From NCBI GenBank assembly GCA_964016885.1, contig OZ024742.1:376402001-376466000 (forward strand): DNA of 64,000 bases. The letters are read 5' to 3'. Position numbers and translations under genes: made by a program. Below, piece after piece: positions 12,301 to 64,000 of the stretch. The notes under the pieces are model-generated. The model was not told the origin of the DNA and made no database searches. It saw only the letters and a list, made by a program, of their open reading frames with translations. Position 1 is the stretch's first letter. Each line of letters begins with the position of its first letter. This stretch comes from Eledone cirrhosa. Taxonomy: Eukaryota.

Positions 12301-13469
12301 ATACAATAGTATAGAGTAATGTAAATGTTATGTGAGATAAAGCCTTTACAGTGAAAATACAATAGTATAGAGTAATGTAAGTGTTATGTGAGATAAAGCC
12401 TTTACAGTGAAAATACAATAGTATAGAGTAATGTAAATGTTATGTGAGATAAAGCCTTTACATTGAAAATACAATAGTATAGAGTAATGTAAATGTTAAG
12501 TGACAGAAAGCATTTACAGTGAAAATACAATAGTATAGAGTAATGTAAATGTTATGTGAGATAAAGCCTTTACGGTGAAAATACCATAGTATAGAGTAAT
12601 GTAAATGTTATGTGAGATAAAGCCTTTACAGTGAAAATACAATAGTATAGAGTAATGTAAATGTTATGTGAGATAAAGCCTTTACAGTGAAAATACAATA
12701 GTATAGAGTAATGTAAATGTTATGTGAGATGAAGCCTTTACAGTGAAAATACAATAGTATAGAGTAGTGTAAATGTTATGTGAGATAAAGCCTTTACAGT
12801 GAAAGTACAATAGTATAGAGTAATGTAAATGTTATGTGAGATAAAGCCTTTACAGTGAAAATACAATAGTATAGAGTAATGTAAATGTTATGTGAGATAA
12901 AGCCTTTACAGTGAAAATACAATAGTATAGAGTAATGTAAATGTTATGTGAGATAAAGCCTTTACAGTGAAAATACAATAGTATAGAGTAATGTAAACGT
13001 TATGTCAGATAAAGCCTTTACAGTGAAAATACAATAGTATAGAGTAATGTAAATGCTATGTGAGATAAAGCCTTTACAGTGAAAATACAATAGTATAGAG
13101 TAATGTAAATGTTATGTGAGATAAAGCCTTTACAGTGAAAATACAATAGTATAGAGTAATGTAAATGCTATGTGAGATAAAGCCTTTACAGTGAAAATAC
13201 AATAGTATTGAGTAATGTAAATGTAATGTGAGATAAAGCCTTTACAGTGAAAATACAATAGTATAGAGTAATGTAAATGTTATGTGAGATAAAGCCTTTA
13301 CAGTGAAAATACAATAGTATAGAGTAATGTAAATGCTATGTGAGGTAAAGCCTTTACAGTGAAAATACAATAGTATAGAGTAATGTAAATGCTATGTGAG
13401 ATAAAGCCTTTACAGTGAAAATACAATAGTATAGAGTAATGTAAATGTTATGTGAGATGAAGCCTTTAC
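3366..13469 (+). repeat. Higher-order repeat in satellite A: alternating 1796-bp (31-mer) and 1516-bp (26-mer) blocks, giving a 3312-bp super-unit
   Basis: The marker monomer with GAGCAATG starts at 3366, 5162, 6678, 8474, 9990, 11786 and 13470 (spacings 1796, 1516, 1796, 1516, 1796, 1684). Each spacing equals n x 56 + 5 x 12. Confidence 0.9.
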
Positions 13470-35200: not shown

Positions 35201-38200
35201 ATGTTATGTGAGATAAAGCCTTTACAGTGAAAATACAATAGTCTAGAGTAATGTAAATGTTATGTGAGATAAAGCATTTACAGTGAAAATACAATAGTAT
35301 AGAGTAATGTAAATGTTATGTGAGATAAAGCCTTTACAGTGAAAATACAATAGTATAGAGTAAGGTAAATGTTATGTGAGATAAAGCCTTTACAGTGAAA
35401 ATACAATAGTATAGAGTAATGTAAATGTTATGTGAGATAAAGCCTTTACAGTGAAAATACAATAGTATAGAGTAATGTAAATGCTATGTGAGATAAAGCC
35501 TTTACAGTGAAAATACAATAGTATAGAGTAATGTAAATGTTATGTGAGATAAAACCTTTTCAGTGAAAATACAATAGTATAGAGTAATGTAAATGCTATG
35601 TGAGATAAAGCCTTTACAGTGAAAATAAAATAGTATAGAGTAATGTAAATGTTATGTGAGATAAAGCCTTTACAGTGAAAATACAATAGTATAGAGTAAT
35701 GTAAATGTTATGTGAGATAAAGCCTTTACAGTGAAAATACAATAGTATAGAGTAATGTAAATGTTATGTGAGATAAAGCCTTTACAGTGAAAATACAATA
35801 GTATAGAGTAATGTAAATGTTATGTGTAATATTATGTGAGATAAAGCCTTTTCAGTGAAAATACAATAGTATAGAGTAATGTAAATGTTATGTGAGATAA
35901 AACCTTTACAGTGAAAATACAATAGTATAGAGTAATGTATATGTTGTGTAATATTATGTGAGATAAAGCCTTTACAGTGAAAATACAATAGTATAGATTA
36001 ATGTAAATGTCATGTGAGATAAAGCCTTTACAGTGAAAATACAATAATATAGAGTAATGTAAATGCTATGTGTAATATTATGTGAGATAAAGCCTTTACA
36101 GTGAAAATAGAATAGTATAGAGTAATGTAAATGCTATGTGTAATATTATGTGAGATAAAGCCTTTACAGTGAAAATACAATCGTATAGAATAATGTAAAT
36201 GTTATGTGAGATAAAGCCTTTACAGTGAAAATACAATAGTATAGAGTAATGTAAATGCTATGTGAGATAAAGCCTTTACAGTGAAAATACAATAGTATAG
36301 AGTAATGTAAATGTTATGTGAGATAAAGCCTTTACAGTGAAAATACAATAGTATAGAGTAATGTAAGTGTTATGTGAGATAAAGCCTTTACAGTGAAAAT
36401 ACAATAGTATAGAGTAATGTAAATGTTATGTGAGATAAAGCCTTTACAGTGAAAATACAATAGTATAGGGTAATGTAAATGTTAAGTGAGATAAAGCCTT
36501 CACAGTGAAAATACAATAGTATAGAGTAATGTAAATGTTATGTGAGATAAAGCCTTTACAGTGAAAATACAATAGTATAGAGTAATGTAAATGTTATGTG
36601 AGATAAAGCCTTTACAGTGAAAATACAATAGTATAGAGTAATGTAAATGTTATGTGAGATAAAGCCTTTACAGTGAAAATACAATAGTATAGAGTAATGT
36701 AAATGTTATGTGTAATATTATGTGAGATAAAGCCTTTTCAGTGAAAATACAATAGTATAGAGTAATGTAAATGTTATGTGTAATATTATGTGAGATAAAG
36801 CCTTTATAGTGAAAATACAATAGTATAGAGTAATGTAAATGTTATATGTAATATTATGTGAGATAAAGCCTTTACAGTGAAAATACAATAGTATAGAGTA
36901 ATGTAAATGTTATGTGTAATATTATGTGAGATAAAGCCTTTACAGTGAAAATACAATAGTATAGAGTAATTTAAACGTTATGTCAGATAAAGCCTTTACA
37001 GTGAAAATACAATAGTATAGAGTAATGTAAATGTTATGTGAGATAAAGCCTTTACAGTGAAAATACAATAGTATAGAGTAATGTAAATGTTATGTGAGAT
37101 AAAGCCTTTACAGTGAAAATACAATAGTATAGAGTAATGTAAATGTTATGTGAGATAAAGCCTTTACAGTGAAAATACAATAGTATAGAGTAATGTAAAT
37201 GTTATGTGAGATAAAGCCTTGACAGTGAAAATACAATAGTATAGAGTAATGTAAATGTTATGTGAGATAAAGCCTTTACAGTGAAAATACAATAGTATAG
37301 AATAATGTAAATGCTATGTGAGATAAAGCCTTTACAGTGAAAATACAATAGTATAGAGTAATGTAAATGTTATGTGAGATAAAGCCTTTACAGTGAAAAT
37401 ACAATAGTATAGAGTAATGTAAATGTTATGTGAGATAAAGCCTTTACAGTGAAAATACAATAGTCTAGAGTAATGTAAATGTTATGTGAGATAAAGCATT
37501 TACAGTGAAAATACAAAAGTATAGAGTAATGTAAATGTTATGTGAGATAAAGCCTTTACAGTGAAAATACAATAGTATAGAGTAAGGTAAATGTTATGTG
37601 AGATAAAGCCTTTACAGTGAAAATACAATAGTATAGAGTAATGTAAATGTTATGTGAGATAAAGCCTTTACAGTGAAAATACAATAGTATAGAGTAATGT
37701 AAATGCTATGTGAGATAAAGCCTTTACAGTGAAAATACAATAGTATAGAGTAATGTAAATGTTATGTGAGATAAAACCTTTTCAGTGAAAATACAATAGT
37801 ATAGAGTAATGTAAATGCTATGTGAGATAAAGCCTTTACAGTGAAAATAAAATAGTATAGAGTAATGTAAATGTTACGTGAGATAAAGCCTTTACAGTGA
37901 AAATACAATAGTATAGAGTAATGTAAATGTTATGTGAGATAAAGCCTTTACAGTGAAAATACAATAGTATAGAGTAATGTAAATGTTATGTGAGATAAAG
38001 CCTTTACAGTGAAAATACAATAGTATAGAGTAATGTAAATGTTATGTGTAATATTATGTGAGATAAAGCCTTTTCAGTGAAAATACAATAGTATAGAGTA
38101 ATGTAAATGTTATGTGAGATAAAACCTTTACAGTGAAAATACAATAGTATAGAGTAATGTATATGTTGTGTAATATTATGTGAGATAAAGCCTTTACAGT

Positions 38201-41200
38201 GAAAATACAATAGTATAGATTAATGTAAATGTCATGTGAGATAAAGCCTTTACAGTGAAAATACAATAATATAGAGTAATGTAAATGCTATGTGTAATAT
38301 TATGTGAGATAAAGCCTTTACAGTGAAAATACAATAGTATAGAGTAATGTAAATGCAATGTGTAATATTATGTGAGATAAAGCCTTTACAGTGAAAATAC
38401 AATCGTATAGAATAATGTAAATGTTATGTGAGATAAAGCCTTTACAGTGAAAATACAATAGTATAGAGTAATGTAAATGCTATGTGAGATAAAGCCTTTA
38501 CAGTGAAAATACAATAGTATAGAGTAATGTAAATGTTATGTGAGATAAAGCCTTTACAGTGAAAATACAATAGTATAGAGTAATGTAAGTGTTATGTGAG
38601 ATAAAGCCTTTACAGTGAAAATACAATAGTATAGAGTAATGTAAATGTTATGTGAGATAAAGCCTTTACAGTGAAAATACAATAGTATAGGGTAATGTAA
38701 ATGTTAAGTGAGATAAAGCCTTCACAGTGAAAATACAATAGTATAGAGTATGGTAAATGTTATGTGAGATAAAGCCTTTACAGTGAAAATACAATAGTAT
38801 CGAGTAATGTAAATGTTATGTGAGATAAAGCCTTTACAGTGAAAATACAATAGTATAGAGTAATGTAAATGTTATGTGAGATAAAGCCTTTACAGTGAAA
38901 ATACAATAGTATAGAGTAATGTAAATGTTATGTCAGATAAAGCCTTTACAGTGAAAATACAATAGTATAGAGTAATGTAAATGTTATGTGAGATAAAGCC
39001 TTTACAGTGAAAATACAATAGTATAGAGTAATGTAAATGTTATGTGTAATATTATGTGAGATAAAGCCTTTTCAGTGAAAATACAATAGTATAGAGTAAT
39101 GTAAATGTTATGTGTAATATTATGTGAGATAAAGCCTTTACAGTGAAAATACAATAGTATAGAGTAATGTAAATGTTATATGTAATATTATGTGAGATAA
39201 AGCCTTTACAGTGAAAATACAATAGTATAGAGTAATGTAAATGTTATGTGTAATATTATGTGGGATAAAGCCTTTACAGTGAAAATACAATAGTATAGAG
39301 TAATTTAAACGTTATGTCAGATAAAGCCTTTACAGTGAAAATACAATAGTATAGAGTAATGTAAATGTTATGTGAGATAAAGCCTTTACAGTGAAAATAC
39401 AATAGTATAGAGTAATGTAAATGTTATGTGAGATAAAGCCTTTACAGTGAAAATACAGTAGTATAGAGTAATGTAAATGTTATGTGAGATAAAGCCTTTA
39501 CAGTGAAAATACAGTAGTATAGAGTAATGTAAATGTTATGTGAGATAAAGCCTTTACAGTGAAAATACAATAGTATAGAGTAATGTAAATGCTATGTGAG
39601 ATAAAGCCTTTACAGTGAAAATACAATAGTATAGAGTAATGTAAATGTTATGTGAGATAAAGCCTTTACAGTGAAAATACAATAGTATAGAGTAATGTAA
39701 ATGTTATGTGAGATAAAGCCTTTACAGTGAAAATACAATAGTATAGAGTAATGTAAATGCTACGTGAGATAAAGCCTTTACAGTGAAAGTACAATAGTAT
39801 AGAGTAATGTAAATGTTATGTGAGATAAAGCCTTTGCAGTGAAAATACAATAGTATAGAGTAATGTTAATGTTACGTGAGATAAAGCCTTTACCGTGAAA
39901 ATAGAATAGTATAGAGTAATGTAAATGTTATGTGAGATAAAGCCTTTACAGTGAAAATACAATAGTATAGAGTAATGTAAATGTTATGCGAGATAAAGCC
40001 TTTACAGTGAAAATACAGTAGTATAGAGTAATGTAAATGTAATGTGAGATAAAGCCTTTACAGTGAAAATACAATAGTATAGAGTAATGTCAATGCTATG
40101 TTAGATAAAGCCTTTACAGTGAAAATACAATAGTATAGAGTAATGTAAATGTTATGTGAGATAAAGCCTTTACAGTGAAAATACAATAGTATAGAGTAAT
40201 GTAAATGTTATGTGAGATAAAGCCTTTACAGTGAAAATACAATAGTATAGAGTAATGTAAATGTTATGTGAGGTAAAGCCTTTACAGTGAAAATACAATA
40301 GTATAGAGTAATGTAAATGTTATGTGAGATAAAGCCTTTACAGTGAAAATACAGTAGTATAGAGTAATGTATATGTTATGTGAGATAAAGCCTTTACAGT
40401 GAAAATACAGTAGTATAGAGTAATGTAAATGTTATGTGAGATAAAGCCTTTACAGTGAAAATACAATAGTATAGAGTAATGTAAATGTTACGTGAGATAA
40501 AGCCTTTACCGTGAAAATAGAATAGTATAGAGTAATGTAAATGTTATGTGAGATAAAGCCTTTACAGTGAAAATACAATAGTATAGAGTAATGTAAATGT
40601 TATGCGAGATAAAGCCTTTACAGTGAAAATACAGTAGTATAGAGTAATGTAAATGTAATGTGAGATAAAGCCTTTACAGTGAAAATACAATAGTATAGAG
40701 TAATGTAAATGCTATGTTAGATAAAGCCTTTACAGTGAAAATACAATAGTATAGAGTAATGTAAATGTTATGTGAGATAAAGCCTTTACAGTGAAAATAC
40801 AATAGTATAGAGTAATGTAAATGTTATGTGAGATAAAGCCTTTACAGTGAAAATACAATAGTATAGAGTAATGTAAATGTTATGTGAGGTAAAGCCTTTA
40901 CAGTGAAAATACAATAGTATAGAGTAATGTAAATGTTATGTGAGATAAAGCCTTTACAGTGAAAATACAGTAGTATAGAGTAATGTAAATGTTATGTGAG
41001 ATAAAGCCTTTACAGTGAAAATACAGTAGTATAGAGTAATGTAAATGTTATGTGAGATAAAGCCTTTACAGTGAAAATACAATAGTATAGAGTAATGTAA
41101 ATGTTATGTGAGATAAAGCCTTTACAGTGAAAATACAATAGTATAGAGTAATGTAAATGTTATGCGAGATAAAGCCTTTACAGTGAAAATACAGTAGTAT

Positions 41201-41330
41201 AGAGTAATGTAAATGTAATGTGAGATAAAGCCTTTACAGTGAAAATACAATAGTATAGAGTAATGTAAATGTAATGTGAGATAAAGCCTTTACAGTGAAA
41301 ATACAGTAGTATAGAGTAATGTAAATGTTA
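29280..41330 (+). repeat. Third higher-order domain in satellite A: multi-kb block duplications with a nested 616-bp (11-mer) duplication
   Basis: The same variant block occurs at 30480, 35782 and 38004. The marker TACCGTGAAAATAG is at about 31922/32538 and again at about 39894/40510 (616 bp apart in both). Confidence 0.8.
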
Positions 41331-42150
41331 TGTGAGATAAAGCCTTTACAGTGAAAATACAATAGTATAGAGTAATGTAAATGTTATGTGAGATAAAGCC
41401 ATTACAGTGAAAATACAGTAGTATAGAGTAATGTAAATGTTATGTGAGATAAAGCCTTTACAGTGAAAATACAGTAGTATAGAGTAATGTAAATGTTATG
41501 TGCGATAAAGCCTTTACAGTGAAAATACAATAGTATAGAGTAATGTAAATGTTATGTGAAATAAAGCCTTTACACTGAAAATACAGTAGTATAGAGTAAT
41601 GTAAATGTTATGTGAGATAAAGCCTTTACAGTGAAAATACAGTAGTATAGAGTAATGTAAATGTTATGTGAGATAAAGCCTTTACAGTGAAAATACAGTA
41701 GTATAGAGTAATGTAAATGTTATGTGAGATAAAGCCTTTACAGTGAAAATACAATAGTATAGAGTAATGTAAATGTTATGTGAGATAAAGCCTTTACAGT
41801 GAAAATACAATAGTATAGAGTAATGTAAATGTTATGTGAGATAAAGCCTTTACAGTGAAAATACAATAGTATAGAGTAATGTAAATGTTATGTGAGATAA
41901 AGCCTTTACAGTGAAAATACAATAGTATAGAGTAATGTAAATGTTATGTGAGATAAAGCCTTTACAGTGAAAATACAATAGTATAGAGTAATGTAAATGT
42001 TATGTGAGATAAAGCCTTTACAGTGAAAATACAATAGTATAGAGTAATGTAAATGTTATGTGAGATAAAGCCTTTACAGTGAAAATACAATAGTATAGAG
42101 TAATGTAAATGCTATGTGAGATAAAGCCTTTACAGTGAAAATACAATAGT

Positions 42151-42179
42151 ATAGAGTAATGTAAATGCTAAAGGGTTAA
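42151..42179 (+). mobile_element. Right terminus of a piggyBac-like MITE (…AGAGTAATGTAAATGCTAAAGGG) plus TTAA target site, capping satellite A
   Basis: The last monomer runs into AAGGG (to 42175) then TTAA (42176-42179). The reverse complement TTAA-CCCTTTAGCATTT matches the termini at 43494-43510, 43856-43872 and 44037-44053. CCC...GGG ends with TTAA duplications are characteristic of the piggyBac superfamily. Confidence 0.8.
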
Positions 42180-42946
42180 TGAGACTTTATTTTATCAACT
42201 CCAGAAGGATGAAAGGCAATTCTTGGCAAGATTTGAACTTAGAACCTAAAGAGCTGGAAGAAATAGCACAAAATATGTTATCTAATGCTCTACTGATTCT
42301 GCCAACCCATCTCTAATACTGGTTTCTCATTTAGACACAAGGGCAACAACTTTTGGGGTAGAAGAAAGTTGATTAAATCGACCCCAGTGCATTACTGTAT
42401 TTGATTTCATCGGCCCCATAAGGATGAAAGGCAAAACTAACCTCGGCAGGATTTGAACTCAGAATATAAAGGGACGTAACTATATACTGCAAAGCATGTT
42501 GTCTGACGCTCTACTGATTACTGATAACCCACTCAAGGTGGAAATAATGATTTTTGATTTAGACATAACGGCAACAATTTTCGGTGAGGGGAAAGTCGAT
42601 TAAATTGAGCCCAGTGCATTACTGGTACTTTATTTTATTGACCCTGTAAAGATGAAAGGTGGGATTTGAACTCAGAATATAAAGGACCATAACTCTCTGC
42701 TGCAAAACATATTGTCCGACGCTCTACTGATTACTGCTAATCTACTGTCCTGACCCACCTCAAATAATGATTTCTATTTTAAGTACAAGACCAGTAAATT
42801 GGTATGAGGGGAAAGTTGATTAAATTGACCCTAGTATATTACTGGTACTTTATTTTATCAACTCTGAACAGTTGAAAGACAAATTTGACCTCGACAGGAT
42901 TCAAACTCAGAATGTAAAGAGTCAAAAGAATTACCTCAATACATTT

Positions 42947-43090
42947 GTGAAGGCACATGGCTTAGTGGTTAGTGCATTGGGCTTGCAATCGAAAGGTTGT
43001 GAGTTCAATTCTCGGACCGGGTGATGTGTTGTTTCCTTGAGCAAGACACTTTATTTCACATTGCTCCAGTTTACTCAGCTGTAGAAATGA
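42947..43090 (+). mobile_element. tRNA-derived SINE head with CORE-like central domain, inserted into SINE copy 4 in the opposite orientation
   Basis: A box TGGCTTAGTGG and B box GTTCAATTC, then GTTTCCTTGAGCAAGACACTTT resembling the CORE-SINE consensus. A possible short ATTT duplication lies at 42943-42946 and 43346-43349 (weak). Confidence 0.75.
42958..43011 (+). promoter_or_regulatory. Internal RNA polymerase III promoter (A and B boxes) of the SINE
   Basis: TGGCTTAGTGG at 42958-42968 fits TRGCNNAGYGG. GTTCAATTC at 43003-43011 fits GTTCRANNC. Spacing is tRNA-like. Confidence 0.7.
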
Positions 43091-43118
43091 GATGATAGGA
43101 CTGGGATCCCTATCATTT

Positions 43119-43347: not shown

Positions 43348-43397
43348 TTAGTCCTATGTTCTAACAATTCTGCCAATCCACTGCCTTATATTCAATA

Positions 43398-43497
43398 ACA
43401 ACAATACTATGTAACAATAGGTATATAGTTAAAGTCACCAACATCCCTCAGATTGCTGGGTTTTATAAGAATACTACAGAACAATATATATACTTAA
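43398..43497 (+). repeat. About 1.5 degenerate copies of a short (about 65-bp) form of the satellite B monomer
   Basis: ACAACAATACTATGTAACAATAGGTATATAGTTAAAGTCACCAACATCCCTCAGATTGCTGGGTTTTATAAGAATACTACAGAACAATATATATACTTAA aligns to satellite B but lacks AGCAGTCTCTGTAAC in both passes. Confidence 0.85.
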
Positions 43498-43620
43498 CCC
43501 TTTAGAATTTAAACTGGATGTATCCAGCCAGAATTCTTTCACCTCTTTCTGTTCAAACCTGTTATGGCTGGTTTGAACAGAAAGTAGTGAGAGAATTCTA
43601 TCTGGATACGGCTGGTTTAA
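43494..43620. mobile_element. Fold-back MITE (type A): TTAA-CCCTTTAG terminus followed by a 51-bp-arm palindrome; right end cut at an internal TTAA
   Basis: Arms 43509-43559 and 43570-43620 are reverse complements at 42 of 51 positions, with loop TGTTATGGCT. A second, complete right arm ending AAATGCTAAAGAG-TTAA lies at 43797-43872. Confidence 0.75.
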
Positions 43621-44053
43621 CCCTTGCAAGCAGGGAAAAGCAGACATAAAATGATGATGATGATTACTCTCTATATACTATCGTATTTTTGTGGCAAAGG
43701 CTTTACCTCACATAATTATCACACATAATATCGAATCTATGAGATTTTGATATTATTTATTTTGAGAACAATACTTTAACATCAGTGTGAGTAGCTGGTT
43801 ATGGCCGGTTCGAACTGAAAGAGGTTAAAGAACTCTGGCCGGATACGGCCGGTTCAAATGCTAAAGAGTTAAGTATATATATATATTGTTCTATAGTATT
43901 CTTATAAAACCCAGACTTTAAGGTATTGTTCTCAAAATAAATAATAACAAAATTTCATACATTCAATATTATGTGAGATGATTATGTATGGTAAAGACTT
44001 TACCATAAAAATATAATAGTAAATATAGAGTAATGTAAATGATAAAGGTTTAA
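43617..44053. mobile_element. piggyBac-like MITE (type B) with long (about 120-135 bp) inverted arms that contain the satellite A monomer
   Basis: Begins TTAA-CCCTT (43617-43625) and ends AAATGATAAAGGT-TTAA (TTAA at 44050-44053). Arm 43663-43779 is the approximate reverse complement of 43918-44034. Confidence 0.75.
43619..43664 (+). mobile_element. Very short RTE-type 3' tail fragment inside the left terminus of MITE B
   Basis: AACCCTTGCAAGCAGGGAAAAGCAGACATAAAATGATGATGATGAT resembles the RTE end AACCCATGCTAGCGTGGAAGAACGGACGTAAAACGGTGATGATGAT. Confidence 0.7.
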
Positions 44054-44120
44054 AGTTATCAACCCCAGATTGTTAGTTTTACAACAATACTATGTAACAA
44101 CAGTCTCTGTAACAATAGAT

Positions 44121-44985: not shown

Positions 44986-45715
44986 AATAGATATATAGTT
45001 AAAACCATCAACTCTCACAGATTGTTAGTTTTACAACAATACTATGTAACAGCAGTCTCTGTAACAATAGATATATAGTTAGAACTATCAACTCTCACAG
45101 ATTGTTAGTTTTACAACAATACTATGTAACAGCAGTCTCTGTAACAATAGATATATAGTTAAAACTATCAACTCTCACAGATTGTTAGTTTTACAACGAT
45201 ACTATGTACCAGCAGTCTCTGTAACAATAGATATATAGTTAAAACTATCAACTCTCACAGATTGTTAGTTTTACGACAATACTATGTAGCAGCAGTCTCT
45301 AACAATAGATATATAGTTAAAACCATCAACTCTCACAGATTGTTAGTTTTACAACAATACTATGTAACAGCAGTCTCTGTAACAATAGATATATAGTTAA
45401 AACTATCAACTCTCACAGATTGTTAGTTTTACAACAATACTATGTAACAGCAGTCTCTGTAACAATAGATATATAGTTAAAACCATCAACTCTCACAGAT
45501 TGTTAGTCTTACAACAATACTATGTAACAGCAGTCTCTGTAACAATAGATATATAGTTAAAACTATCAACTCTAAACAGATTGTTAGTTTTACAACAATA
45601 CTATGTAGCAGCAGTCTCTGTAACAATAGATATATAGTTAAAACCATCAACTCTCACAGATTGTTAGTTTTACGACAATACTATGTAGCAGCAGTCTCTG
45701 TAACAATGGATATAT

Positions 45716-46370
45716 CATCATCATCATCATCACCGTTTTACGTCCGTTCTTCCACGCTAGCATGGGTTAGACGGGTTGTCCTGTTGTGTGCAGTGTCTGG
45801 TCGGCTAACCATGCTTTGCTCATACAGGAACTGATCTGGCTTGATTTCTACAGCTGGATGCCCTTCCTAACACCAACCTCATTTACAGTGAGTGCTGGGT
45901 GCTTTTTCGTGGCGCCTACACGTCCACTTTACAGTGTGGGCTGGGTGCTTTTTTGCTGTGGCACCTCCACGACCACCTTGCGGGGGAGGGGGGCATATTG
46001 TTTATATTCTTCAGCATGTACCCATGGGAGGTCGGGTACTCTGTATTACTGCGTGACACCAGAAGTCACGGTCGCGTGTCATTGTCTTTGAGAGGTGTAA
46101 TTGGGTAAGGTCGGCTTTTATCACCTCATCCCAGGTCATCTTGGGTCTCCCCACTCCGCGGTTTCCGTCAACTACTAGTGCTCTGCACCTTTTTATGCAG
46201 CTGTCATCCTTCATACGCATCACATGTCCATACCAGCGCAACCGCCTCTCCTGCACACAGCATTTGATTCCTCTTATGCTCAGTCTCTCTCTCAATTCAT
46301 TTATGCTTTGTCGGTCACGTATATTACTGTTACACATCCATCGGAGCATGAAGGCTTCGTTTCTCTCTAA
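45716..46370 (-). mobile_element. 5'-truncated RTE LINE, copy 2 (655 bp), no target-site duplication
   Basis: Inserted at GGATATAT^AGTTAAAA with the (CAT)n tail from 45716. The satellite resumes in register at 46371. Confidence 0.93.
46011..46370 (-). pseudogene. RTE ORF C-terminal fragment (copy 2)
   Basis: LERNEA.MLRWMC...RRLRWYGHVMRM...RGVGRPKMTWDEVIKADL...stop. No native start codon. Confidence 0.9.
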
Positions 46371-48613
46371 AGTTAAAAATATCAACTGTCACAGATTGTT
46401 AGTTTTACAACAATACTATGTAACAGCAGTCTCTGTAACAATAGATATATAGTTAAAACTATCAACTCTCACAGATTGTTAGTTTTACAACAATACTATG
46501 TAACAACAGTCTCTGTAACAATAGATATATAGTTAAAACTATCAACTCTAAACAGATTGTTAGTTTTACAACAATACTATGTAGCAGCAGTCTCTGTAAC
46601 AATAGATATATAGTTAAAACTATCAACTCTCACAGATTGTTAGTTTTACAACAATACTATGTAACAGCAGTCTCTGTAACAATAGATATATAGTTAAAAC
46701 TATCAACTCTCACCGATTGTTAGTTTAACAACAATACTATGTAACAGCAGTCTCTGTAACAATAGATATATAGTTAAAACCATCAACTCTCACAGATTGT
46801 TACTTTTACAACAATACTATCTAACAGCAGTCTCTGTAACAATAGATATATAGTTAAAAGCATCAACTCTCACAGATTGTTAGTTTTATAACAATACTAT
46901 GTAACAGCAGTCTCTGTAACAATAGATATATAGTTAAAACTATCAACTCTCACAGATTGTTAGTTTTACAACAATACTATGTAACAGCAGTCTCTGTAAC
47001 AATAGATATATAGTTAAAACTATCAACTCTCACAGATTGTTAGTTTTACAACAATACTAAGTAACAGCAGTCTCTGTAACAATAGATATATAGTTAAAAC
47101 CATCAACTCTCACAGATTGTTAGTTTTACAACAATACTATGTAGCAGCAGTCTCTGTAACAATAGATATATAGTTAAAACTATCAACTCTCACAGATTGT
47201 TAGTTTTACAACAATACTATGTAACAGCAGTCTCTGTAACAATAGATATATAGTTAAAACCATCAACTCTCACAGATTGTTAGTTTTACAACAATACTAT
47301 GTAACAGCAGTCTCTGTAACAATAGATATATAGTTAAAACTATCAACTGCCACAGATTGTTAGTTTTACAACAATACTATGTAACAACATTCTCTGTAAT
47401 AATAGATATATAGTTAAAACTATCAACTCTCACAGATTGTTAGTTTTACAACAATACTATGTAACAGCAGTCTCTGTAACAATAGATATATAGTTAAAAC
47501 TATCAACTGTCACAGATTGTTAGTTTTACAACAATACTATGTAACAGCAGTCTCTGTAACAATAGATATATAGTTAAAACTATCAACTGTCACAGATTGT
47601 TAGTTTTACAACAATACTATGTAACAACAGTCTCTGTAACAATAGATATATAGTTAAAACTATCAACTCTAAACAGATTGTTAGTTTTACAACAATACTA
47701 TGTAACAGCAGTCTCTGTAACAATAGATATATAGTTAAAACTATCAACTTTCACCAATTGTTAGTTTTACAACAATACTATGTAACAGCAGTCTCTGTAA
47801 CAATAGATATATAGTTAAAACTATCAACTCTCACAGATTGTTAGTTTTACAACAATACTATGTAACAGCAGTCTCTGTAACAATAGATATATAGTTAAAA
47901 CCATCAACTCTCACAGATTGTTAGTCTTGCAACAATACTATGTAACAGCAGTCTCTGTAACAATAGATATATAGTTAAAACTATCAACTGTCACAGATTG
48001 TTAGTTTTACAACAATACTATGTAACAGCAGTCTCTGTAACAATAGATATATAGTTAAAACTATCAACTGTCACAGATTGTTAGTTTTACAACAATACTA
48101 TGTAACAACAGTCTCTGTAACAATAGATATATAGTTAAAACTATCAACTCTAAACAGATTGTTAGTTTTACAACAATACTATGTAACAGCAGTCTCTGTA
48201 ACAATAGATATATAGTTAAAACTATCAACTTTCACCAATTGTTAGTTTTACAACAATACTATGTAACAGCAGTCTCTGTAACAATAGATATATAGTTAAA
48301 ACTATCAACTCTCACAGATTGTTAGTTTTACAACAATACTATGTAACAGCAGTCTCTGTAACAATAGATATATAGTTAAAACCATCAACTCTCACAGATT
48401 GTTAGTCTTGCAACAATACTATGTAACAGCAGTCTCTGTAACAATAGATATATAGTTAAAACTATCAACTCTCACAGATTGTTAGTTTTACAACAATACT
48501 ATGTAGCAGCAGTCTCTGTAACAATAGATATATAGTTAAAACCATCAACTCTCACAGATTGTTAGTTTTACGACAATACTATGTAGCAGCAGTCTCTGTA
48601 ACAATGGATATAT

Positions 48614-49268
48614 CATCATCATCATCATCACCGTTTTACGTCCGTTCTTCCACGCTAGCATGGGTTAGACGGGTTGTCCTGTTGTGTGCAGTGTCTGGTC
48701 GGCTGACCATGCTTTGCTCATACAGGAACTGATCTGGCTTGATTTCTACAGCTGGATGCGCTTCCTAACACCAACCTCATTTACAGTGAGTGCTGGGTGC
48801 TTTTTCGTGGCGCCTACACGTCCACTTTACAGTGTGGGCTGGGTGCTTTTTTGCTGTGGCACCTCCACGACCACCTTGCGGGGGGGGGGGGCATATTGTT
48901 TATATTCTTCAACATGTACCCATGGGAGGTCGGGTACTCTGTATTACTGCGTGACACCAGAAGTCACGGTCGCGTGTCATTGTTTTTGAGAGGTGTAATT
49001 GGGTAAGGTCGGCTTTTATCACCTCATCCCAGGTCATCTTGGGTCTCCCCACTCCGCGGTTTCCGTCAACTACTAGTGCTCTGCACCTTTTTATGCAGCT
49101 GTCATCCTTCATACGCATCACATGTCCATACCAGCGCAACCGCCTCTCCTGCACACAGCATTTGATTCCTCTTATGCTCAGTCTCTCTCTCAATTCATTT
49201 ATGCTTTGTCGGTCACGTATATTACTGTTACACATCCATCGGAGCATGCAGGCTTCGTTTCTCTCTAA
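48614..49268 (-). mobile_element. RTE LINE copy 3 (655 bp), duplicate of copy 2
   Basis: Same two junctions and same rare flanking variants (TACGACAATACTATGTAGCAGC...CAATGGATATAT), offset 2898 bp. I count about 6 substitutions versus copy 2. Confidence 0.93.
48909..49268 (-). pseudogene. RTE ORF C-terminal fragment (copy 3)
   Basis: Same peptide as copy 2 apart from one visible change (EAC vs EAF). Confidence 0.9.
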
Positions 49269-51299
49269 AGTTAAAACTATCAACTGTCACAGATTGTTAG
49301 TTTTACAACAATACTATGTAACAGCAGTCTCTGTAACAATAGATATATAGTTAAAACTATCAACTCTCACAGATTGTTAGTTTTACAACAATACTATGTA
49401 ACAACAGTCTCTGTAACAATAGATATATAGTTAAAACTATCAACTCTAAACAGATTGTTAGTTTTACAACAATACTATGTAGCAGCAGTCTCTGTAACAA
49501 TAGATATATAATTAAAACTATCAACTCTCACAGATTGTTAGTTTTACAACAATACTATGTAACAGCAGTCTCTGTAACAATAGATATATAGTTAAAACTA
49601 TCAACTCTCACAGATTGTTAGTTTTACGACAATACTATGTAACAGCAGTCTCTGTAACAATAGATATATAGTTAAAACTATCAACTCTCACCGATTGTTA
49701 GTTTAACAACAATACTATGTAACAGCAGTCTCTGTAACAATAGATATATAGTTAAAACCATCAACTCTCACAGATTGTTACTTTTACAACAATACTATGT
49801 AACAGCAGTCTCTGTAACAATAGATATATAGTTAAAACTATCAACTGTCACAGATTGATAGTTTTACAACAATACTGTGTAACAGCAGTCTTTTTAACAA
49901 TAGATATATAGTTAGAACTATCAACTCTCACAGATTGTTACTTTTACAACAATACTATGTAACAACAGACTCTGTAACAATAGATATATAGTTAGAACTA
50001 TCAACTCTCACAGATTGTTACTTTTACAACAATACTATGTACCAGCAGTATCTGTAACAATAGATATACAGTTAAAACTATCACCTCTCACAGATTGTTA
50101 GTTTTACAACAATACTATGTAACAGCAGTCTCTGTAACAATAGATATATAGTTAGAACTATCAACTCTCACAGATTGTTACTTTTACAACAATACTATGT
50201 AACAGCAGTCTCTGTAACAATAGATATATAGTTAAAACTATCAACTCTCACAGATTGTTAGTTTTACAACAATACTATGTAACAACAGACTCTGTAACAA
50301 TAGATATATAGTTAAAACCATCAACTCTCACAGATTGTTACTTTTACAACAATACTATGTAACAGCAGTCTCTGTAACAATAGATATATAGTTAAAACCA
50401 TCAACTCTCACAGATTGTTAGTTTTACAACAATACTATGTAACAGCAGTCTCTGTAACAATAGATATATAGTTAAAACCATCAACTCTCACAGATTGTTA
50501 GTTTTACAACAATACTATGTAACAGCAGTCTCTGTAACAATAGATATATAGTTAAAACTATCAACTGCCACAGATTGTTAGTTTTACAACAATACTATGT
50601 AACAACATTCTCTGTAATAATAGATATATATTTAAAACTATCAACTCTCACAGATTGTTAGTTTTACAACAATACTATGTAACAGCAGTCTCTGTAACAA
50701 TAGATATATAGTTAAAACTATCAACTGTCACAGATTGTTAGTTTTACAACAATACTATGTAACAGCAGTCTCTGTAACAATAGATATATAGTTAAAACTA
50801 TCAACTGTCACAGATTGTTAGTTTTACAACAATACTATGTAACAACAGTCTCTGTAACAATAGATATATAGTTAAAACTATCAACTCTAAACAGATTGTT
50901 AGTTTTACAACAATACTATGTAACAGCAGTCTCTGTAACAATAGATATATAGTTAAAACCATCAACTCTCACAGATTGTTAGTTTTACAACAATACTATG
51001 TAACAGCAGTCTCTGTAACAATAGATATATAGTTAAAACTATCAACTGTCACAGATTGATAGTTTTACAACAATACTATGTAACAGCAGTCTTTGTAACA
51101 ATAGATATATAGTTAGAACTATCAACTCTCACAGATTGTTACTTTTACAACAATACTATGTAACAACAGACTCTGTAACAATAGATATATAGTTAGAACT
51201 ATCAACTCTCACAGATTGTTAATTTTACAACAATACTATGTACCAGCAGTATCTGTAACAATAGATATACAGTTAAAACTATCAACTCTCACAGATTGT

Positions 51300-54200
51300 T
51301 AGTTTTACAACAATACTATGTAACAACAGACTCTGTAACAATAGATATATAGTTAAAACCATCAACTCTCACAGATTGTTACTTTTACAACAATACTATG
51401 TAACAGCAGTCTCTGTAACAATAGATATATAGTTAAAACCATCAACTCTCACAGATTGTTAGTTTTACAACAATACTATGTAACAGCAGTCTCTGTAACA
51501 ATAGATATATAGTTAAAACCATCAACTCTCACAGATTGTTAGTTTTACAACAATACTATGTAACAGCAGTCTCTGTAACAATAGATATATAGTTAAAACT
51601 ATCAACTGCCACAGATTGTTAGTTTTACAACAATACTATGTAACAACATTCTCTGTAATAATAGATATATATTTAAAACTATCAACTCTCACAGATTGTT
51701 AGTTTTACAACAATACTATGTAACAGCAGTCTCTGTAACAATAGATATATAGTTAAAACTATCAACTGTCACAGATTGTTAGTTTTACAACAATACTATG
51801 TAACAGCAGTCTCTGTAACAATAGATATATAGTTAAAACTATCAACTGTCACAGATTGTTAGTTTTACAACAATACTATGTAACAACAGTCTCTGTAACA
51901 ATAGATATATAGTTAAAACTATCAACTCTAAACAGATTGTTAGTTTTACAACAATACTATGTAACAGCAGTCTCTGTAACAATAGATATATAGTTAAAAC
52001 CATCAACTCTCACAGATTGTTAGTTTTACAACAATACTATGTAGCAGCAGTCTCTGTAACAATAGATATATAGTTAAAACCATCAACTGTCACAGATTGA
52101 TAGTTTTACAACAATACTATGTAACAGCAGTCTTTGTAACAATAGATATATAGTTAGAACTATCAACTCTCACAGACTGTTACTTTTACAACAATACTAT
52201 GTAACAGCAGTCTCTGTAACAATAGATATATAGTTAGAACTATCAACTCTCACAGATTGTTACTTTTACAACAATACTATGTAACAGCAGTCTCTGTAAC
52301 AATAGATATATAGTTAGAACTATCAACTCTCACAGATTGTTACTTTTACAACAATACTATGTAACAGCAGTCTCTGTAACAATAGATATATAGTTAGAAC
52401 TATCAACTCTCACAGATTGTTAGTTTTACAACAATACTATGTAACAGCAGTCTCTGTAACAATAGATATATAGTTAAAACTATCAACTCTCACAGATTGT
52501 TAGTTTTACAACAATACTATGTAACAGCAGTCTCTGTAATAATAGATATATAGTTAGACCTATCAACTCTCACAGATTGTTACTTTTACAACAATACTAT
52601 GTAACAACAGACTCTGTAACAATAGATATATAGTTAAAACTATTAACTCTCACAGATTGTTAGTTTTACAACAATACTATGTAACAGCAGTCTCTGTAAC
52701 AATAGATATATAGTTAAAACCATCAACTCTCACAGATTGTTAGTTTTACAACAATACTATGTAACAGCAGTCTCTGTAACAATAGATATATAGTTAAAAC
52801 TATCAACTGCCACAGATTGTAAGTTTTACAACAATACTATGTAACAACATTCTCTGTAATAATAGATATATAGTTAAAACCATCAACTCTCACAGATTGT
52901 TAGTTTTACAACAATACTATGTAACAGCAGTCTCTGTAACAATAGATATATAGTTAAAACTATCAACTCTCAGAGATTGTTAGTTTTACAACAATACTAT
53001 GTAACAGCAGTCTCTGTAACAATAGATATATAGTTAGAACTATCAACTCTCACAGATTGTTACTTTTACAACAATACTATGTAACAGCAGTCTCTGTAAC
53101 AATAGATATATAGTTAAAACTATCAACTCTCACAGATTGTTAGTTTTACAACAATACTATGTAACAACAGACACTGTAACAATAGATATATAGTTAAAAC
53201 CATCAACTCTTACAGATTGTTACTTTTACAACAATACTATGTAACAGCAGTCTCTGTAACAATAGATATATAGTTAAAACTATCAACTCTCACAGATTGT
53301 TAGTTTTACAACAATACTATGTAACAGCAGTCTCTGTAACAATAGATATATAGTTAAAACCATCAACTCTCACAGATTGTTAGTTTTACAACAATACTAT
53401 GTAACAGCAGTCTCTGTAACAATAGATATATAGTTAAAACTATCAACTGCCACAGATTGTTAGTTTTACAACAATACTATGTAACAACATTCTCTGTAAT
53501 AATAGATATATAGTTAAAACTATCAACTCTCACAGAGTGTTAGTTTTACAACAATACTATGTAACAACAGTCTCTGTAACAATAGATATATAGTTAAAAC
53601 TATCAACTCTAAAGAGATTGTTAGTTTTACAACAATACTATGTAACAGCAGTCTCTGTAACAATAGATATATAGTTAAAACTATCAACTCTCACCGATTG
53701 TTAGTTTTACAACAATACTATGTAACAGCAGTCTCTGTAACAATAGATATATAGTTAAAACCATCAACTCTCACAGATTGTTAGTTTTACAACAATACTA
53801 TGTAACAGCAGTCTCTGTAACAATAGATATATAGTTAAAACTATCAACTGTCACAGATTGTTAGTTTTACAACAATACTATGTAACAGCAGTCTCTGTAA
53901 CAATAGATATATAGTTAAAACTATCAACTCTCAGAGATTGTTAGTTTTACAACAATACTATGTAACAACAGTCTCTGTAACAATAGATATATAGTTAAAA
54001 CTATCAACTCTAAACAGATTGTTAGTTTTACAACAATACTATGTAACAGCAGTCTCTGTAACAATAGATATATAGTTAAAACTATCAACTCTCACCGATT
54101 GTTAGTTTTACAACAATACTATGTAACAGCAGTCTCTGTAACAATAGATATATAGTTAAAACCATCAACTCTCACAGATTGTTACTTTTACAACAATACT

Positions 54201-57200: not shown

Positions 57201-57700
57201 AAAACCATCAACTCTCACAGATTGTTAGTTTTACAACAATACTATGTAACAGCAGTCTCTGTAACAATAGATATATAGTTAAAACTATCAACTGTCACAG
57301 ATTGTTAGTTTTACAACAATACTATGTAACAGCAGTCTCTGTAACAATAGATATATAGTTAAAACTATCAACTCTCAGAGATTGTTAGTTTTACAACAAT
57401 ACTATGTAACAACAGTCTCTGTAACAATAGATATATAGTTAAAACTATCAACTCTAAACAGATTGTTAGTTTTACAACAATACTATGTAACAGCAGTCTC
57501 TGTAACAATAGATATATAGTTAAAACTATCACTCTCACCGATTGTTAGTTTTACAACAATACTATGTAACAGCAGTCTCTGTAACAATAGATATATAGTT
57601 AAAACCATCAACCTCTCACAGATTGTTACTTTTACAACAATACTATGTAACAGCAGTCTCTGTAACAATAGATATATAGTTAAAACTATCAACTCTCACA
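51300..57700 (+). repeat. Higher-order duplication in satellite B, 3443-bp period (43 monomers)
   Basis: Private variant CAGACTGTTAC at 52177 and 55620, followed in the same order by TTAGACCTATC, CTATTAACT, TTGTAAGTT, GACACTGT, CAGAGTGTT and CTAAAGAG. 3443 = 43 x 80 + 3. Confidence 0.85.
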
Positions 57701-63700: not shown

Positions 63701-64000
63701 TATATAGTTTAAAACCATCAACTGTCACAGATTGATAGTTTTACAACAATACTATGTAACAGCAGTCTCTGTAACAATAGATATATAGTTAGAACTATCA
63801 ACTCTCACAGATTGTTACTTTTACAACAATACTATGTAACAACAGACTCTGTAACAATAGATATATAGTTAAAACTATCAACTTTCACAGATTGTTAGTT
63901 TTACAACAATACTATGTAACAGCAGTCTCCTGTAACAATAGATATATAGTTAAAACTATCAACTCTCACAGATTGTTACTTTTACAACAATACTATGTAA

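What the first reader, a model, noticed from the sequence alone, without database searches (positions are those of the whole stretch)
43663..44053. Single-copy progenitor of satellite A preserved twice, as the inverted arms of a MITE about 1.5 kb from the array
Seen: 43965-44053 (AATATTATGTGAGATGATTATGTATGGTAAAGACTTTACCATAAAAATATAATAGTAAATATAGAGTAATGTAAATGATAAAGGTTTAA) is one diverged monomer followed by the same terminus that caps the array. 43663-43730 is the same unit on the minus strand (rc TATTATGTGTGATAATTATGTGAGGTAAAGCCTTTGCCACAAAAATACGATAGTATATAGAGAGTAAT). Both continue inward with about 50 bp of shared non-satellite sequence, so they are arms of an element rather than stray monomers. 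Inference: source family and derived satellite sit side by side.
Basis: partly seen in the sequence, partly recalled or inferred. Interest (0 to 1): 0.75.

Follow-up and report, generated by a model that had tools for sequence, protein, structure and literature searches.

The report
Satellite array inside one piggyBac MITE
The two inverted "arms" are two separate copies of an abundant 229-bp piggyBac-type miniature transposon, and the neighbouring 56-bp satellite is a 105.6-kb array that lies wholly between the two ends of a third copy of that transposon, so it likely grew by repeated duplication of a 60-bp piece inside that copy.

Summary
43663-43788 and 43909-44034 form a 126-nt inverted repeat, 84% complementary. 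Each arm holds one unit like the satellite A monomer, and the right arm ends like the array.

The arms are not the two arms of one MITE. They are pieces of two independent copies of a 229-bp family with 17-nt terminal inverted repeats, counting the TTAA, and TTAA target duplications. The family has at least 10,934 exact 5' ends in the genome. A young 2,575-bp autonomous piggyBac with a 561-aa transposase frame carries matching termini.

The two local copies are not the progenitor: they rank 26th and 27th of 29 units in likeness to satellite A.

The array has its own host copy. It starts with TTAA, the 5' repeat and 157 bp of MITE body, 63.4 kb left of the window. It ends with the 3' repeat and TTAA at 42163-42179. 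The two outer flanks rejoin into one unit of a neighbouring 220-bp repeat. Dispersed copies with 2 to 38 units share the same unit junction.

This is a new member of a known kind, the tandem-repeat-bearing MITE that gives rise to a satellite.

The parts
1..42162 (+). Window part of the satellite A array. Units are 56 bp, with a 68-bp variant. The array begins 63.4 kb left of the window, at G000:C3:376338560, with TTAA, the MITE 5' inverted repeat and 157 bp of MITE body.
   Evidence: TRF finds 1-42167, period 56, 735.6 copies. Upstream stretches were fetched and joined with no N and no interruption. The left end was read in L052 4560-4715. There are 1,815 units; the 56-mers are 98.0% identical to their consensus.
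42163..42179 (+). 3' terminal inverted repeat AAATGCTAAAGGG (42163-42175) plus the TTAA target-site duplication (42176-42179) of the host MITE. This is the cap of the array.
   Evidence: The array end matches family consensus positions 159-229 at 63 of 71. The outer flanks rejoin on one TTAA. In run X1, 292 contigs leave the stretch right behind 42179 with unlike flanks.
42180..42950 (.). About 3.5 units of a roughly 220-bp tandem repeat. The host MITE inserted into one unit of it, and the left flank of the array continues that same unit.
   Evidence: Direct-repeat families D1, D3, D5 and D11. Empty-site alignment.
43396..43493 (+). Diverged satellite-B-like sequence (79% to B) that ends at a TTAA.
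   Evidence: BLAST against a B dimer, plus reading.
43494..43559 (+). MITE fragment, family positions 1-66 (TTAA plus 5' inverted repeat).
   Evidence: 59 of 66 identical to the family consensus.
43561..43620 (-). MITE fragment, family positions 16-75. It forms a hairpin with the preceding fragment and breaks at the internal TTAA.
   Evidence: 51 of 60 identical. Inverted pair I5.
43621..43662 (+). Short piece like the 3' end of the (GAT)n-tailed retroelement seen at 43119-43347. It abuts the MITE copy at family position 210.
   Evidence: Direct repeat D12, 78% over 50 nt.
43663..43872 (-). MITE copy, family positions 1-210; the last 19 nt with the 3' repeat are missing.
   Evidence: 194 of 210 (92.4%) identical to the family consensus.
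43873..43917 (-). Satellite-B-like spacer between the two copies. Positions 43878-43914 are 97% complementary to 43456-43492.
   Evidence: Inverted pair I11.
43918..44053 (+). MITE fragment, family positions 94-229. It starts at the internal TTAA and ends with the 3' repeat plus TTAA.
   Evidence: 122 of 136 (89.7%) identical to the family consensus.
44050..44120 (+). Satellite B monomer that starts at its own TTAA (B positions 14-17). It is the target-site flank of the right MITE fragment.
   Evidence: 90.5% to the B consensus from position 14.
44986..64000 (+). Satellite B array, 80-bp units. It is context and not part of the MITE-satellite A system.
   Evidence: TRF: period 80, 236.8 copies.

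Best explanation
Satellite A is a 105,620-bp array of 56-bp and 68-bp units that lies entirely between the two terminal inverted repeats and TTAA duplications of one copy of a 229-bp piggyBac-type MITE. It likely arose by tandem amplification of the 60-bp segment next to that copy's 3' end.

Shown:
- The family has sharp ends: 5' TTAA-CCCTTTAGCATTT and 3' AAATGCTAAAGGG-TTAA.
- A 2,575-bp autonomous piggyBac in the same genome has the same termini.
- Every sampled family copy carries one such unit.
- Other copies, bounded by both ends, carry 2 to 38 units joined at the same point (GTAAATG|TTATGTGAG).
- The big array has both ends, and its outer flanks rejoin into one unit of a 220-bp repeat.
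- The two 'arms' of the finding are two further, independent, damaged copies lying head to head.

Inferred:
- The order of events: a single-unit MITE, then a sub-lineage with a founding duplication that spread by transposition, then local copy-number change, then runaway expansion and homogenisation at this locus.
- The mechanism of expansion, which would be slippage or unequal exchange helped by the 12-bp direct sub-repeat TTATGTGAGATA.
- Mobilisation in trans by the autonomous element.
For: Family and ends.
- The query 43663-44053 hits a dispersed family (7,640 first-look candidates, of which 40 were scored).
- Alignment of 27 copies with their flanks gives sharp boundaries and a 229-bp consensus.
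- TTAA stands at the 5' end in 24 of 27 copies, at the 3' end in 17 of 27, and at both in 16 of 27.
- The 22-nt 5' end occurs 5,463 + 5,471 times; the reversed control occurs 0 times.

Autonomous partner.
- PF13843 gives 125 matches, several with uninterrupted 561-aa frames.
- 20 of the 30 loci fetched hold a full or nearly full 2,575-bp element, 93.3-100% identical to one another. Its ends read TTAACCCTTTAGC(A/G)TTC and GAA(C/T)GCTAAAGGGTTAA.
- MITE positions 1-157 align to one subterminal region at 67-68% (E 2e-8 to 1e-4). Positions 208-229 match the other end at 95%.

Homology of monomer and MITE.
- The monomer matches MITE positions 158-217 at 52 of 60. The differences are a 4-bp TATA deletion and CCAC to CAGT.

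The array lies inside one copy.
- Left end: L052 4560-4715 is TTAA, the 5' repeat and the body (135 of 151 to the consensus), running straight into monomers.
- Right end: window 42163-42179.
- The stretch between is continuous, with no N and no 500-bp bin below 45% consensus 10-mers.
- Empty-site test: 75 nt of left flank, one TTAA and 60 nt of right flank align collinearly with three neighbouring 220-bp units. Identities are 98-105 of 144-150. The score is 96, against a shuffle mean of 18.8, sd 5.7 and a maximum of 47 in 500 shuffles. Both TTAAs fall on the same TTAC of the unit.

Intermediates.
- Copies bounded by both ends carry about 2.4, 5, 8, 9 and 38 units (L024, L023, L094, L095, L090); others are partial.
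- The junction 22-mer occurs 17,559 + 17,882 times with 0 in the control. At most 1,815 of these can lie in this array.

Lineage.
- After GCCTTTA, single-unit copies read CCATGA, CCACAA or CCACGA in 21 of 33 units. Arrays of more than 5 units read CTGTGA in 75 of 113. Satellite A reads CAGTGA in 1,632 of 1,818.
- In the ML tree, satellite A falls in a clade with 6 of the 9 arrays of more than 5 units (UFBoot 81, SH-aLRT 91).

The local arms are not the source.
- They match 48 and 44 of 56 monomer positions, against 49-53 for 25 of the 27 genome-wide copies. That ranks them 26th and 27th of 29.
- They fall elsewhere in the tree.
Against: - The core of the unit (MITE positions 158-207) has no counterpart in the autonomous element. 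Its ultimate origin is therefore open, and it could once have been captured.
- The tree rests on 60 columns. The satellite's clade is not strongly supported, and 26 of 40 inner branches are unresolved.
- The host copy's 5' body is not closer to repeat-bearing copies than to single-unit ones. The sub-lineage claim therefore rests on the unit alone.
- The loci sampled are not random. They are the best scorers to the query and junction hits in the first 5 Mb of contig C1.
- No read or contig was shown to span either array junction. One search was swamped by repeats, and the second read-laying request did not complete. Array length and continuity therefore rest on the assembly alone.
- 38 of 670 exact satellite-A-type 32-mers lie outside this array. 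Only one of them was looked at (L089).
Confidence: 0.85

Rival explanations
1. 43663-44053 is one MITE whose two long inverted arms each preserve the single-copy progenitor monomer of satellite A.
For: A 126-nt inverted repeat at 84%. Two other loci, L002 and L004, match the whole 391 nt at 76-79%.
Against: - The family's ends are 17-nt repeats. Typical copies are 229 bp with one unit.
- The left arm belongs to a copy that runs on to 43872 with its own 5' end, followed by foreign satellite-B-like sequence.
- L002 and L004 are head-to-head pairs with different junctions (family position 16 joined to 1, and 57 joined to 1). They are independent events, not a dimer family.
- The arms share no private variants (reading), and they are among the least satellite-like units.
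Confidence: 0.04
2. Capture in the other direction. A pre-existing satellite A supplied one monomer to the founder of the MITE family, as proposed for miDNA4 in Xenopus, and the array here is a remnant of that older satellite.
For: The unit core (MITE positions 158-207) is absent from the autonomous piggyBac. The review passages describing Scalvenzi and Pollet's model include capture of a pre-existing tandem repeat.
Against: - This array lies inside a MITE copy, with both ends and a clean TTAA insertion site.
- Its diagnostic TATA deletion occurs in 1 of 160 dispersed units.
- 632 of 670 exact satellite-A-type 32-mers are in this one array.
- The last 10 nt of the monomer overlap the terminus shared with the autonomous element.
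- Capture of some older repeat by the family founder is not excluded, but this array is not that repeat.
Confidence: 0.07
3. Assembly artefact. The array, or its joins to the MITE ends, were produced or mis-sized by the assembler, which could join dispersed MITE ends to a collapsed repeat.
For: No read-level check of either junction succeeded (and the calls that did not complete). Long homogeneous arrays are hard to assemble.
Against: - There is no N in 132 kb.
- Both outer flanks belong to the same unit of the 220-bp repeat and share the same TTAA position. A chance mis-join would not produce that.
- The 68-bp variant is interspersed throughout, and divergence is flat along the array.
- Smaller copies elsewhere, bounded by both ends, show the same architecture.
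Confidence: 0.04

Closest known systems
miDNA4, a Tc1/mariner MITE of Xenopus tropicalis carrying a satellite motif (Scalvenzi and Pollet 2014). I saw it only as described in passages of two reviews, PMC12628747 and PMC9659126.
   Same: A MITE whose internal unit occurs once or as arrays of variable copy number. The proposed path runs from a repeat-bearing MITE to classical satellite arrays.
   Different: - The superfamily differs: piggyBac with TTAA here, Tc1/mariner there.
- That model expects long arrays to have lost their inverted repeats. Here a 105.6-kb array still has both repeats and both TTAAs.
- That model proposes capture of a pre-existing repeat. Here the unit sits next to, and overlaps, the 3' terminus.
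DTC84 and pearl-type tandem-repeat-containing MITEs of bivalves (Satovic and Plohl 2013, PMC3879986; abstract read).
   Same: A high-copy MITE with an internal array of core repeats of variable number and flanking 'cassette' sequences. A palindrome or short repeat near the unit junction is proposed there as a hotspot.
   Different: DTC84 has up to five core repeats, a microsatellite segment and a putative AA target duplication. Here there are TTAA duplications, a 17-nt repeat, no microsatellite module, 1 to about 1,815 units, and an identified autonomous partner. No sequence relation was tested.
Xstir/Xmix of Xenopus laevis (Hikosaka and Kawahara 2004; seen only in review passages).
   Same: MITE, tandem array and composite MITE-plus-array forms coexist, and the tandem unit derives from internal MITE sequence.
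   Different: The proposed mechanism there joins two neighbouring elements through a stem-loop. Here the array grows from one subterminal segment inside a single element.
Tetris foldback transposon and its satellite in Drosophila virilis (Dias et al. 2014, PMC4079207; search listing and start of abstract only).
   Same: A DNA transposon whose internal tandem repeats provided the building blocks of a satellite.
   Different: In Tetris the repeats are part of long inverted arms of a foldback element.

Membership tests
piggyBac-superfamily non-autonomous element (MITE) | TTAA target-site duplication | tested here: met
   TTAA stands at the 5' end in 24 of 27 copies, at the 3' end in 17 of 27, and at both in 16 of 27. 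The rejoined flanks of the array-bearing copy align to paralogous units with one TTAA-equivalent. TTAA as the piggyBac hallmark is established knowledge.
piggyBac-superfamily non-autonomous element (MITE) | Short terminal inverted repeats beginning CCC... and ending ...GGG | tested here: met
   CCCTTTAGCATTT and AAATGCTAAAGGG are perfect reverse complements in the consensus and in the host copy.
piggyBac-superfamily non-autonomous element (MITE) | An autonomous element in the same genome with matching termini that encodes a DDE_Tnp_1_7 transposase | tested here: met
   PF13843 matches up to 299 bits with 561-aa open frames. The 2,575-bp elements carry TTAACCCTTTAGC... and ...GCTAAAGGGTTAA ends. 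Subterminal similarity to MITE positions 1-157.
piggyBac-superfamily non-autonomous element (MITE) | Small size and high copy number | tested here: met
   229-bp consensus. 10,934 exact 22-nt 5' ends, control 0. Absence of an ORF was not formally tested; 229 bp leaves no room for a transposase.
piggyBac-superfamily non-autonomous element (MITE) | Mobilisation in trans by the transposase, with precise excision | not testable with these tools
   This needs an excision or transposition assay, or insertion polymorphism data.
Tandem-repeat-containing MITE | Copies bounded by both ends that carry a variable number of the same internal unit | tested here: met
   L024 (2.4 units), L023 (5), L094 (8), L095 (9) and L090 (38) each have both ends. 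The host of satellite A has 1,815 units.
Satellite DNA (classical sense) | A long, homogeneous head-to-tail array | tested here: met
   105.6 kb without interruption. The 56-mers are 98.0% identical to their consensus.
Satellite DNA (classical sense) | Heterochromatic location, and high abundance at several loci | tested here: inconclusive
   The 56-bp type is almost confined to this locus: 632 of 670 exact 32-mers. The wider 60-72-bp family is at very many loci. Chromatin state cannot be tested. The locus lies 2.5 Mb from the end of a 378.9-Mb contig.

The most novel reading that the evidence does not exclude
The 105.6-kb satellite array is still a legitimate piggyBac substrate. It has perfect terminal repeats and TTAAs on both sides, and autonomous copies up to 100% identical to one another are present in the genome. 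A whole satellite array could therefore be cut out and pasted elsewhere in one step. The family as a whole would then act as a genome-wide seeder of satellite arrays, with transposase-linked repair at the 3' end driving the unit duplications.
Probability: 0.12. Interest if true: 0.75.

Novelty: new member of a known kind. Interest (0 to 1): 0.5.

Why it matters
Models of how satellites are born from transposons usually rest on sequence likeness between a dispersed element and an array whose ends are lost. In this case every stage is present in one genome:
- the autonomous piggyBac;
- its single-unit MITE;
- copies bounded by both ends, with 2 to 38 units;
- a 105.6-kb homogenised array that still keeps both terminal repeats, both TTAAs and a recognisable empty site.

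That fixes the direction, from MITE to array, for this locus. It also gives a dated contrast. The host body is about 10.6% diverged from the family consensus, while the array units are about 2% diverged from theirs. Last, it offers a test bed for whether transposase activity or plain unequal exchange drives the expansion.

Neither of the two reviews I searched mentions piggyBac among satellite-forming MITEs ('piggyBac' occurs 0 times in each).

Tried and rejected
- Read-level check of the junctions. Read laying on window:41900-44300 with four coded runs gave only short contigs swamped by repeat copies, and no piece spanned a junction. The second request, for the left junction at L052:3700-4900, did not complete: the machine was busy.
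- Species comparison. The genome has no relatives in the held set. Runs under three coded organism labels hold parts of the stretch, but the labels are coded and the depths are sums over repeats. No statement about 'MITE without satellite' in a relative can be made.
- Search for other satellite A arrays. The DNA search scored only 40 of 1,495 candidates, all within this array. The reverse-complement pattern search listed the same places as and added nothing. The 38 outside matches remain unlocated except one on C2 (L089, a 6-unit array of mostly 72-bp units).
- Considered and dropped: the left arm as a local inverted duplicate of the right arm. They share no private variants.
- Considered and dropped: the host 5' body marking the repeat-bearing sub-lineage. 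There is no signal.
- ARAGORN finds no tRNA in 42100-46500. My impression that the neighbouring repeats look tRNA-derived is therefore unsupported.
- Earlier-findings look-ups returned nothing.
- A literature search for the terminal-repeat and monomer strings found only 5 unrelated papers.

Full report
**Layout of the window**

TRF finds three zones:
- satellite A, 56-bp units, 1-42167, running off the left end;
- satellite B, 80-bp units, 44986-64000, running off the right end;
- a 2.8-kb mosaic between them.

The window is G000:C3:376402001-376466000 in a 3.0-Gb genome of 1,796 contigs. It lies 2.5 Mb from the end of a 378.9-Mb contig.

**Check of the observation**

The arms 43663-43788 and 43909-44034 form a 126-nt inverted repeat at 84% complementarity. 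BLAST gives 86.3% over 117 nt, E = 2e-35.

Satellite A monomers match the left arm in reverse complement, 45 nt at 82%. They match the right arm directly at 48 of 56 monomer positions. The right arm ends like the array: 17 of 19 positions of GTAAATGCTAAAGGGTTAA agree.

**What the arms are**

Searching the genome with 43663-44053 gave 7,640 first-look candidates, of which 40 were scored. Typical hits cover query positions 1-210 on one strand and 256-391 on the other strand at the same place. So the usual element is about 230 bp and has one satellite-like unit, not two arms.

I aligned 27 copies with their flanks, leaving out the window's own copy and the two dimers L002 and L004. The alignment gives sharp boundaries and a 229-bp consensus. 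The element starts TTAA-CCCTTTAGCATTT and ends AAATGCTAAAGGG-TTAA. That is a perfect 13-nt inverted repeat, or 17 nt counting the TTAA.

TTAA stands at the 5' end in 24 of 27 copies, at the 3' end in 17 of 27, and at both in 16 of 27. The exact 22-nt 5' end occurs 5,463 + 5,471 times in the genome, and the reversed control pattern occurs 0 times.

**The autonomous partner**

Pfam PF13843, the piggyBac transposase family, gives 125 matches in the genome. Several have uninterrupted 561-aa frames. Of the 30 loci fetched, 20 hold a full or nearly full 2,575-bp element, 93.3-100% identical to the L063 copy. Thirteen of these are at least 98.2% identical.

The ends of this element read TTAACCCTTTAGC(A/G)TTC and GAA(C/T)GCTAAAGGGTTAA. 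MITE positions 1-157 align with one subterminal region at 67-68% (E 2e-8 to 1e-4). Positions 208-229 match the other terminus at 95%.

The family is therefore a piggyBac-type MITE with a young autonomous relative. The unit core, positions 158-207, has no counterpart in the autonomous element.

**Anatomy of the finding**

Against the family consensus:

| Window coordinates | Strand | Family positions | Identity | Note |
|---|---|---|---|---|
| 43663-43872 | minus | 1-210 | 92.4% | last 19 nt missing; abuts a (GAT)n-tailed retroelement-like piece |
| 43918-44053 | plus | 94-229 | 89.7% | starts at an internal TTAA |
| 43494-43559 | plus | 1-66 | 59 of 66 | |
| 43561-43620 | minus | 16-75 | 51 of 60 | |

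Between the two main copies lie 45 bp of satellite-B-like sequence. The copies are flanked by B-like sequence that breaks at B's own TTAA, positions 14-17 of the B unit.

The two arms share no private differences from the consensus (my reading). They are independent family members lying head to head.

L002 and L004 matched the whole 391 nt, and they are also head-to-head pairs. Their junctions differ, with position 16 joined to 1 in one and 57 joined to 1 in the other, so they are separate events. I could not reconstruct the full history of the local mosaic.

**Relation to satellite A**

The 56-bp monomer aligns to MITE positions 158-217 at 52 of 60. The differences are a 4-bp TATA deletion and CCAC to CAGT. 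The last array unit runs into GCTAAAGGG-TTAA, which is the 3' terminal repeat, at 42163-42179.

I then walked left of the window. The array begins at L052 4560, which is C3:376338560, with TTAA, the 5' repeat and the whole 157-bp body. The body is 135 of 151 identical to the consensus, and it runs directly into monomers.

The joined stretch has no N, and no 500-bp bin falls below 45% consensus 10-mers. The element measures 105,620 bp; the figure carried one extra leading base.

The array holds 1,815 units: 1,512 of 56 bp and 276 of 68 bp. The 68-bp form adds one 12-bp sub-repeat. The 56-mers are 98.0% identical to their consensus, evenly along the array.

**Empty-site test**

I joined 75 nt of left flank, one TTAA and 60 nt of right flank, and aligned the result to the ~220-bp repeat that follows the array. 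It aligns collinearly with each of three neighbouring units. Identities are 98-105 of 144-150. The score is 96, against a shuffle mean of 18.8, sd 5.7 and a maximum of 47 in 500 shuffles. Both TTAAs fall on the same TTAC of the unit.

The whole 105.6 kb is thus one insertion into a 220-bp repeat unit, with a TTAA duplication. The array grew inside it.

**Intermediates**

Among the family loci, several copies carry short arrays of the same unit, all joined at GTAAATG|TTATGTGAG:
- L023: 5 units of 60 bp, with both ends;
- L024: 2.4 units, with both ends;
- L012: 5.8 units of 72 bp, with a degraded 3' end;
- L030: 7.8 units of 85 bp;
- L009: about 4 units.

The junction 22-mer occurs 17,559 + 17,882 times in the genome with 0 in the control. 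At most 1,815 of these can be in this array.

I fetched eight junction loci: seven chosen from the first 5.2 Mb of C1, plus the C2 place. They include:
- L090: 38 units of 72 bp, 2.85 kb, with both ends;
- L094: 8 units, with both ends;
- L095: 9 units, with both ends;
- L091: about 8 units, with both ends;
- L092: at least 17.5 units of 60 bp;
- L093, L096 and L089, which are partial.

The period follows the number of 12-bp sub-repeats: 60, 72 and 85 bp. Satellite A is the 60-bp form minus TATA.

**Lineage**

After GCCTTTA:
- single-unit copies read CCATGA, CCACAA or CCACGA in 21 of 33 units, and CTGTGA in 3 of 33;
- arrays of more than 5 units read CTGTGA in 75 of 113;
- satellite A reads CAGTGA in 1,632 of 1,818, one step from CTGTGA.

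The TATA deletion is present in 1 of 160 dispersed units.

An ML tree of 48 unit sequences over 60 columns puts satellite A in a clade with 6 of the 9 arrays of more than 5 units and 3 single units (UFBoot 81, SH-aLRT 91). The two local arms fall elsewhere. Most forks are unresolved.

The local arms match the monomer at 48 and 44 of 56 positions, against 49-53 for 25 of the 27 genome-wide copies. That ranks them 26th and 27th of 29.

The satellite-A-specific 32-mer occurs 670 times in the genome, 632 of them in this array.

**Mechanism, with its status**

Shown:
- the ends, the TTAA and the matching autonomous element;
- the unit in every sampled copy;
- one common junction;
- a graded series of unit numbers inside copies bounded by both ends;
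- the big array enclosed by both ends, with a clean empty site.

Inferred:
- A founding duplication of the subterminal segment occurred in one sub-lineage. Short homology around ATG/TTATG and the 12-bp direct sub-repeat would favour it.
- That sub-lineage spread by transposition.
- Copy number changed locally by slippage or unequal exchange.
- One copy underwent a runaway, recently homogenised expansion. The host body is 10.6% diverged from the consensus, the units 2% from theirs.

The array interior is poor in TTAA: 0.99 per kb, against 16.5 per kb expected from base composition and 10.4 per kb in satellite B. This fits the absence of nested piggyBac-type insertions, but that link is my inference.

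**What is known**

Tandem-repeat-bearing MITEs and satellites derived from MITEs are established:
- DTC84 and pearl elements in bivalves (PMC3879986; abstract read);
- Xstir/Xmix and miDNA4 in Xenopus (seen only in passages of the reviews PMC12628747 and PMC9659126);
- Tetris in Drosophila virilis (search listing only).

As the review describes it, the Scalvenzi-Pollet model expects long arrays to have lost their inverted repeats. In this array they are intact. Neither review mentions piggyBac (0 occurrences in each). No paper in the library holds the terminal-repeat or monomer strings (5 unrelated hits). I did not see supplements, Repbase or Dfam, so the family may already be catalogued there.

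That piggyBac can carry cargos of 100 kb or more is recalled from memory, not from any call.

**Limits**

- The sampled copies are not random.
- The junctions rest on the assembly alone: one search was uninformative and six further calls did not complete.
- No related genome could be compared.
- The origin of the unit core is open.

**Verdict**

The stronger result is that satellite A is an internally expanded piggyBac-type MITE. This is a new member of a known kind, and an unusually complete one.

Noticed in passing
window 44986-64000, also 44119-44985 and 45715-46370: The satellite B array (80-bp units) is interrupted by 5'-truncated copies of a retroelement-like repeat that ends in (GAT)n on its own strand. 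A copy in the opposite orientation lies at 43119-43347. Together these form a 122-nt (94%) and a 78-nt (92%) inverted pair around the whole mosaic (I1 and I3).
   Followed up: partly
window 43396-43493, 43873-43917, 44050-44120: Each B unit carries a TTAA at positions 14-17. The MITE pieces here are flanked by B-like sequence that breaks exactly at that TTAA, so satellite B has served as a piggyBac target. The B-like flank at 43456-43492 recurs inverted at 43878-43914 at 97%.
   Followed up: partly
G000:C3:376302001-376335995 (L036, L043-L050, L052 1-1995): A third satellite of 44-bp units (ATATACCTGTAACCCCTAATTCTGTACCTTCTCACCCTACAATA, 95% matches) covers at least 34 kb just left of the satellite A element. 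Three different satellites thus lie side by side near the contig end.
   Followed up: no
L052 2865-3417: A 61-bp repeat of 9.1 copies at 99% identity, between the 44-bp satellite and the satellite A element.
   Followed up: no
L003, L013, L030 and window 43662/43663: Family position 210 (after GAGTAAT) is a recurrent breakpoint. In three copies the same SINE-like sequence follows it. In L013 the MITE resumes after about 110 bp with a duplication of about 19 bp, as after a retroelement insertion. In the window's left copy a (GAT)n-tailed piece abuts the same position.
   Followed up: partly
L011 1756-2407: Whole-element tandem repeat of the MITE: period 216 bp, 3 copies at 98%. This is a second and different way in which the family forms tandem arrays.
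   Followed up: no
L059-L088, for example L063 507-3081: The autonomous piggyBac family is 2,575 bp long. Many copies are 98-100% identical to one another and carry uninterrupted 561-aa frames, so the family is likely active or was active very recently.
   Followed up: partly
G000:C1:4221182-4260254 (places listed): Clusters of the unit junction recur at spacings of about 6 to 17 kb on the minus strand. This may be a larger tandemly duplicated segment that contains a repeat-bearing MITE.
   Followed up: no
window 42134, in runs X1-X4: At the site that separates satellite A (CAGTG) from the dispersed array type (CTGTG), 52% of the summed contig depth reads T in X3, 65% in X1 (another organism label) and 0 in X2. 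X2 holds one 86-nt contig identical to satellite A.
   Followed up: no
window 42180-42950: About 3.5 units of a roughly 220-bp tandem repeat whose sequence recurs next to other MITE copies (L003, L013, L030). It looked tRNA-derived to me, but ARAGORN finds no tRNA there.
   Followed up: partly
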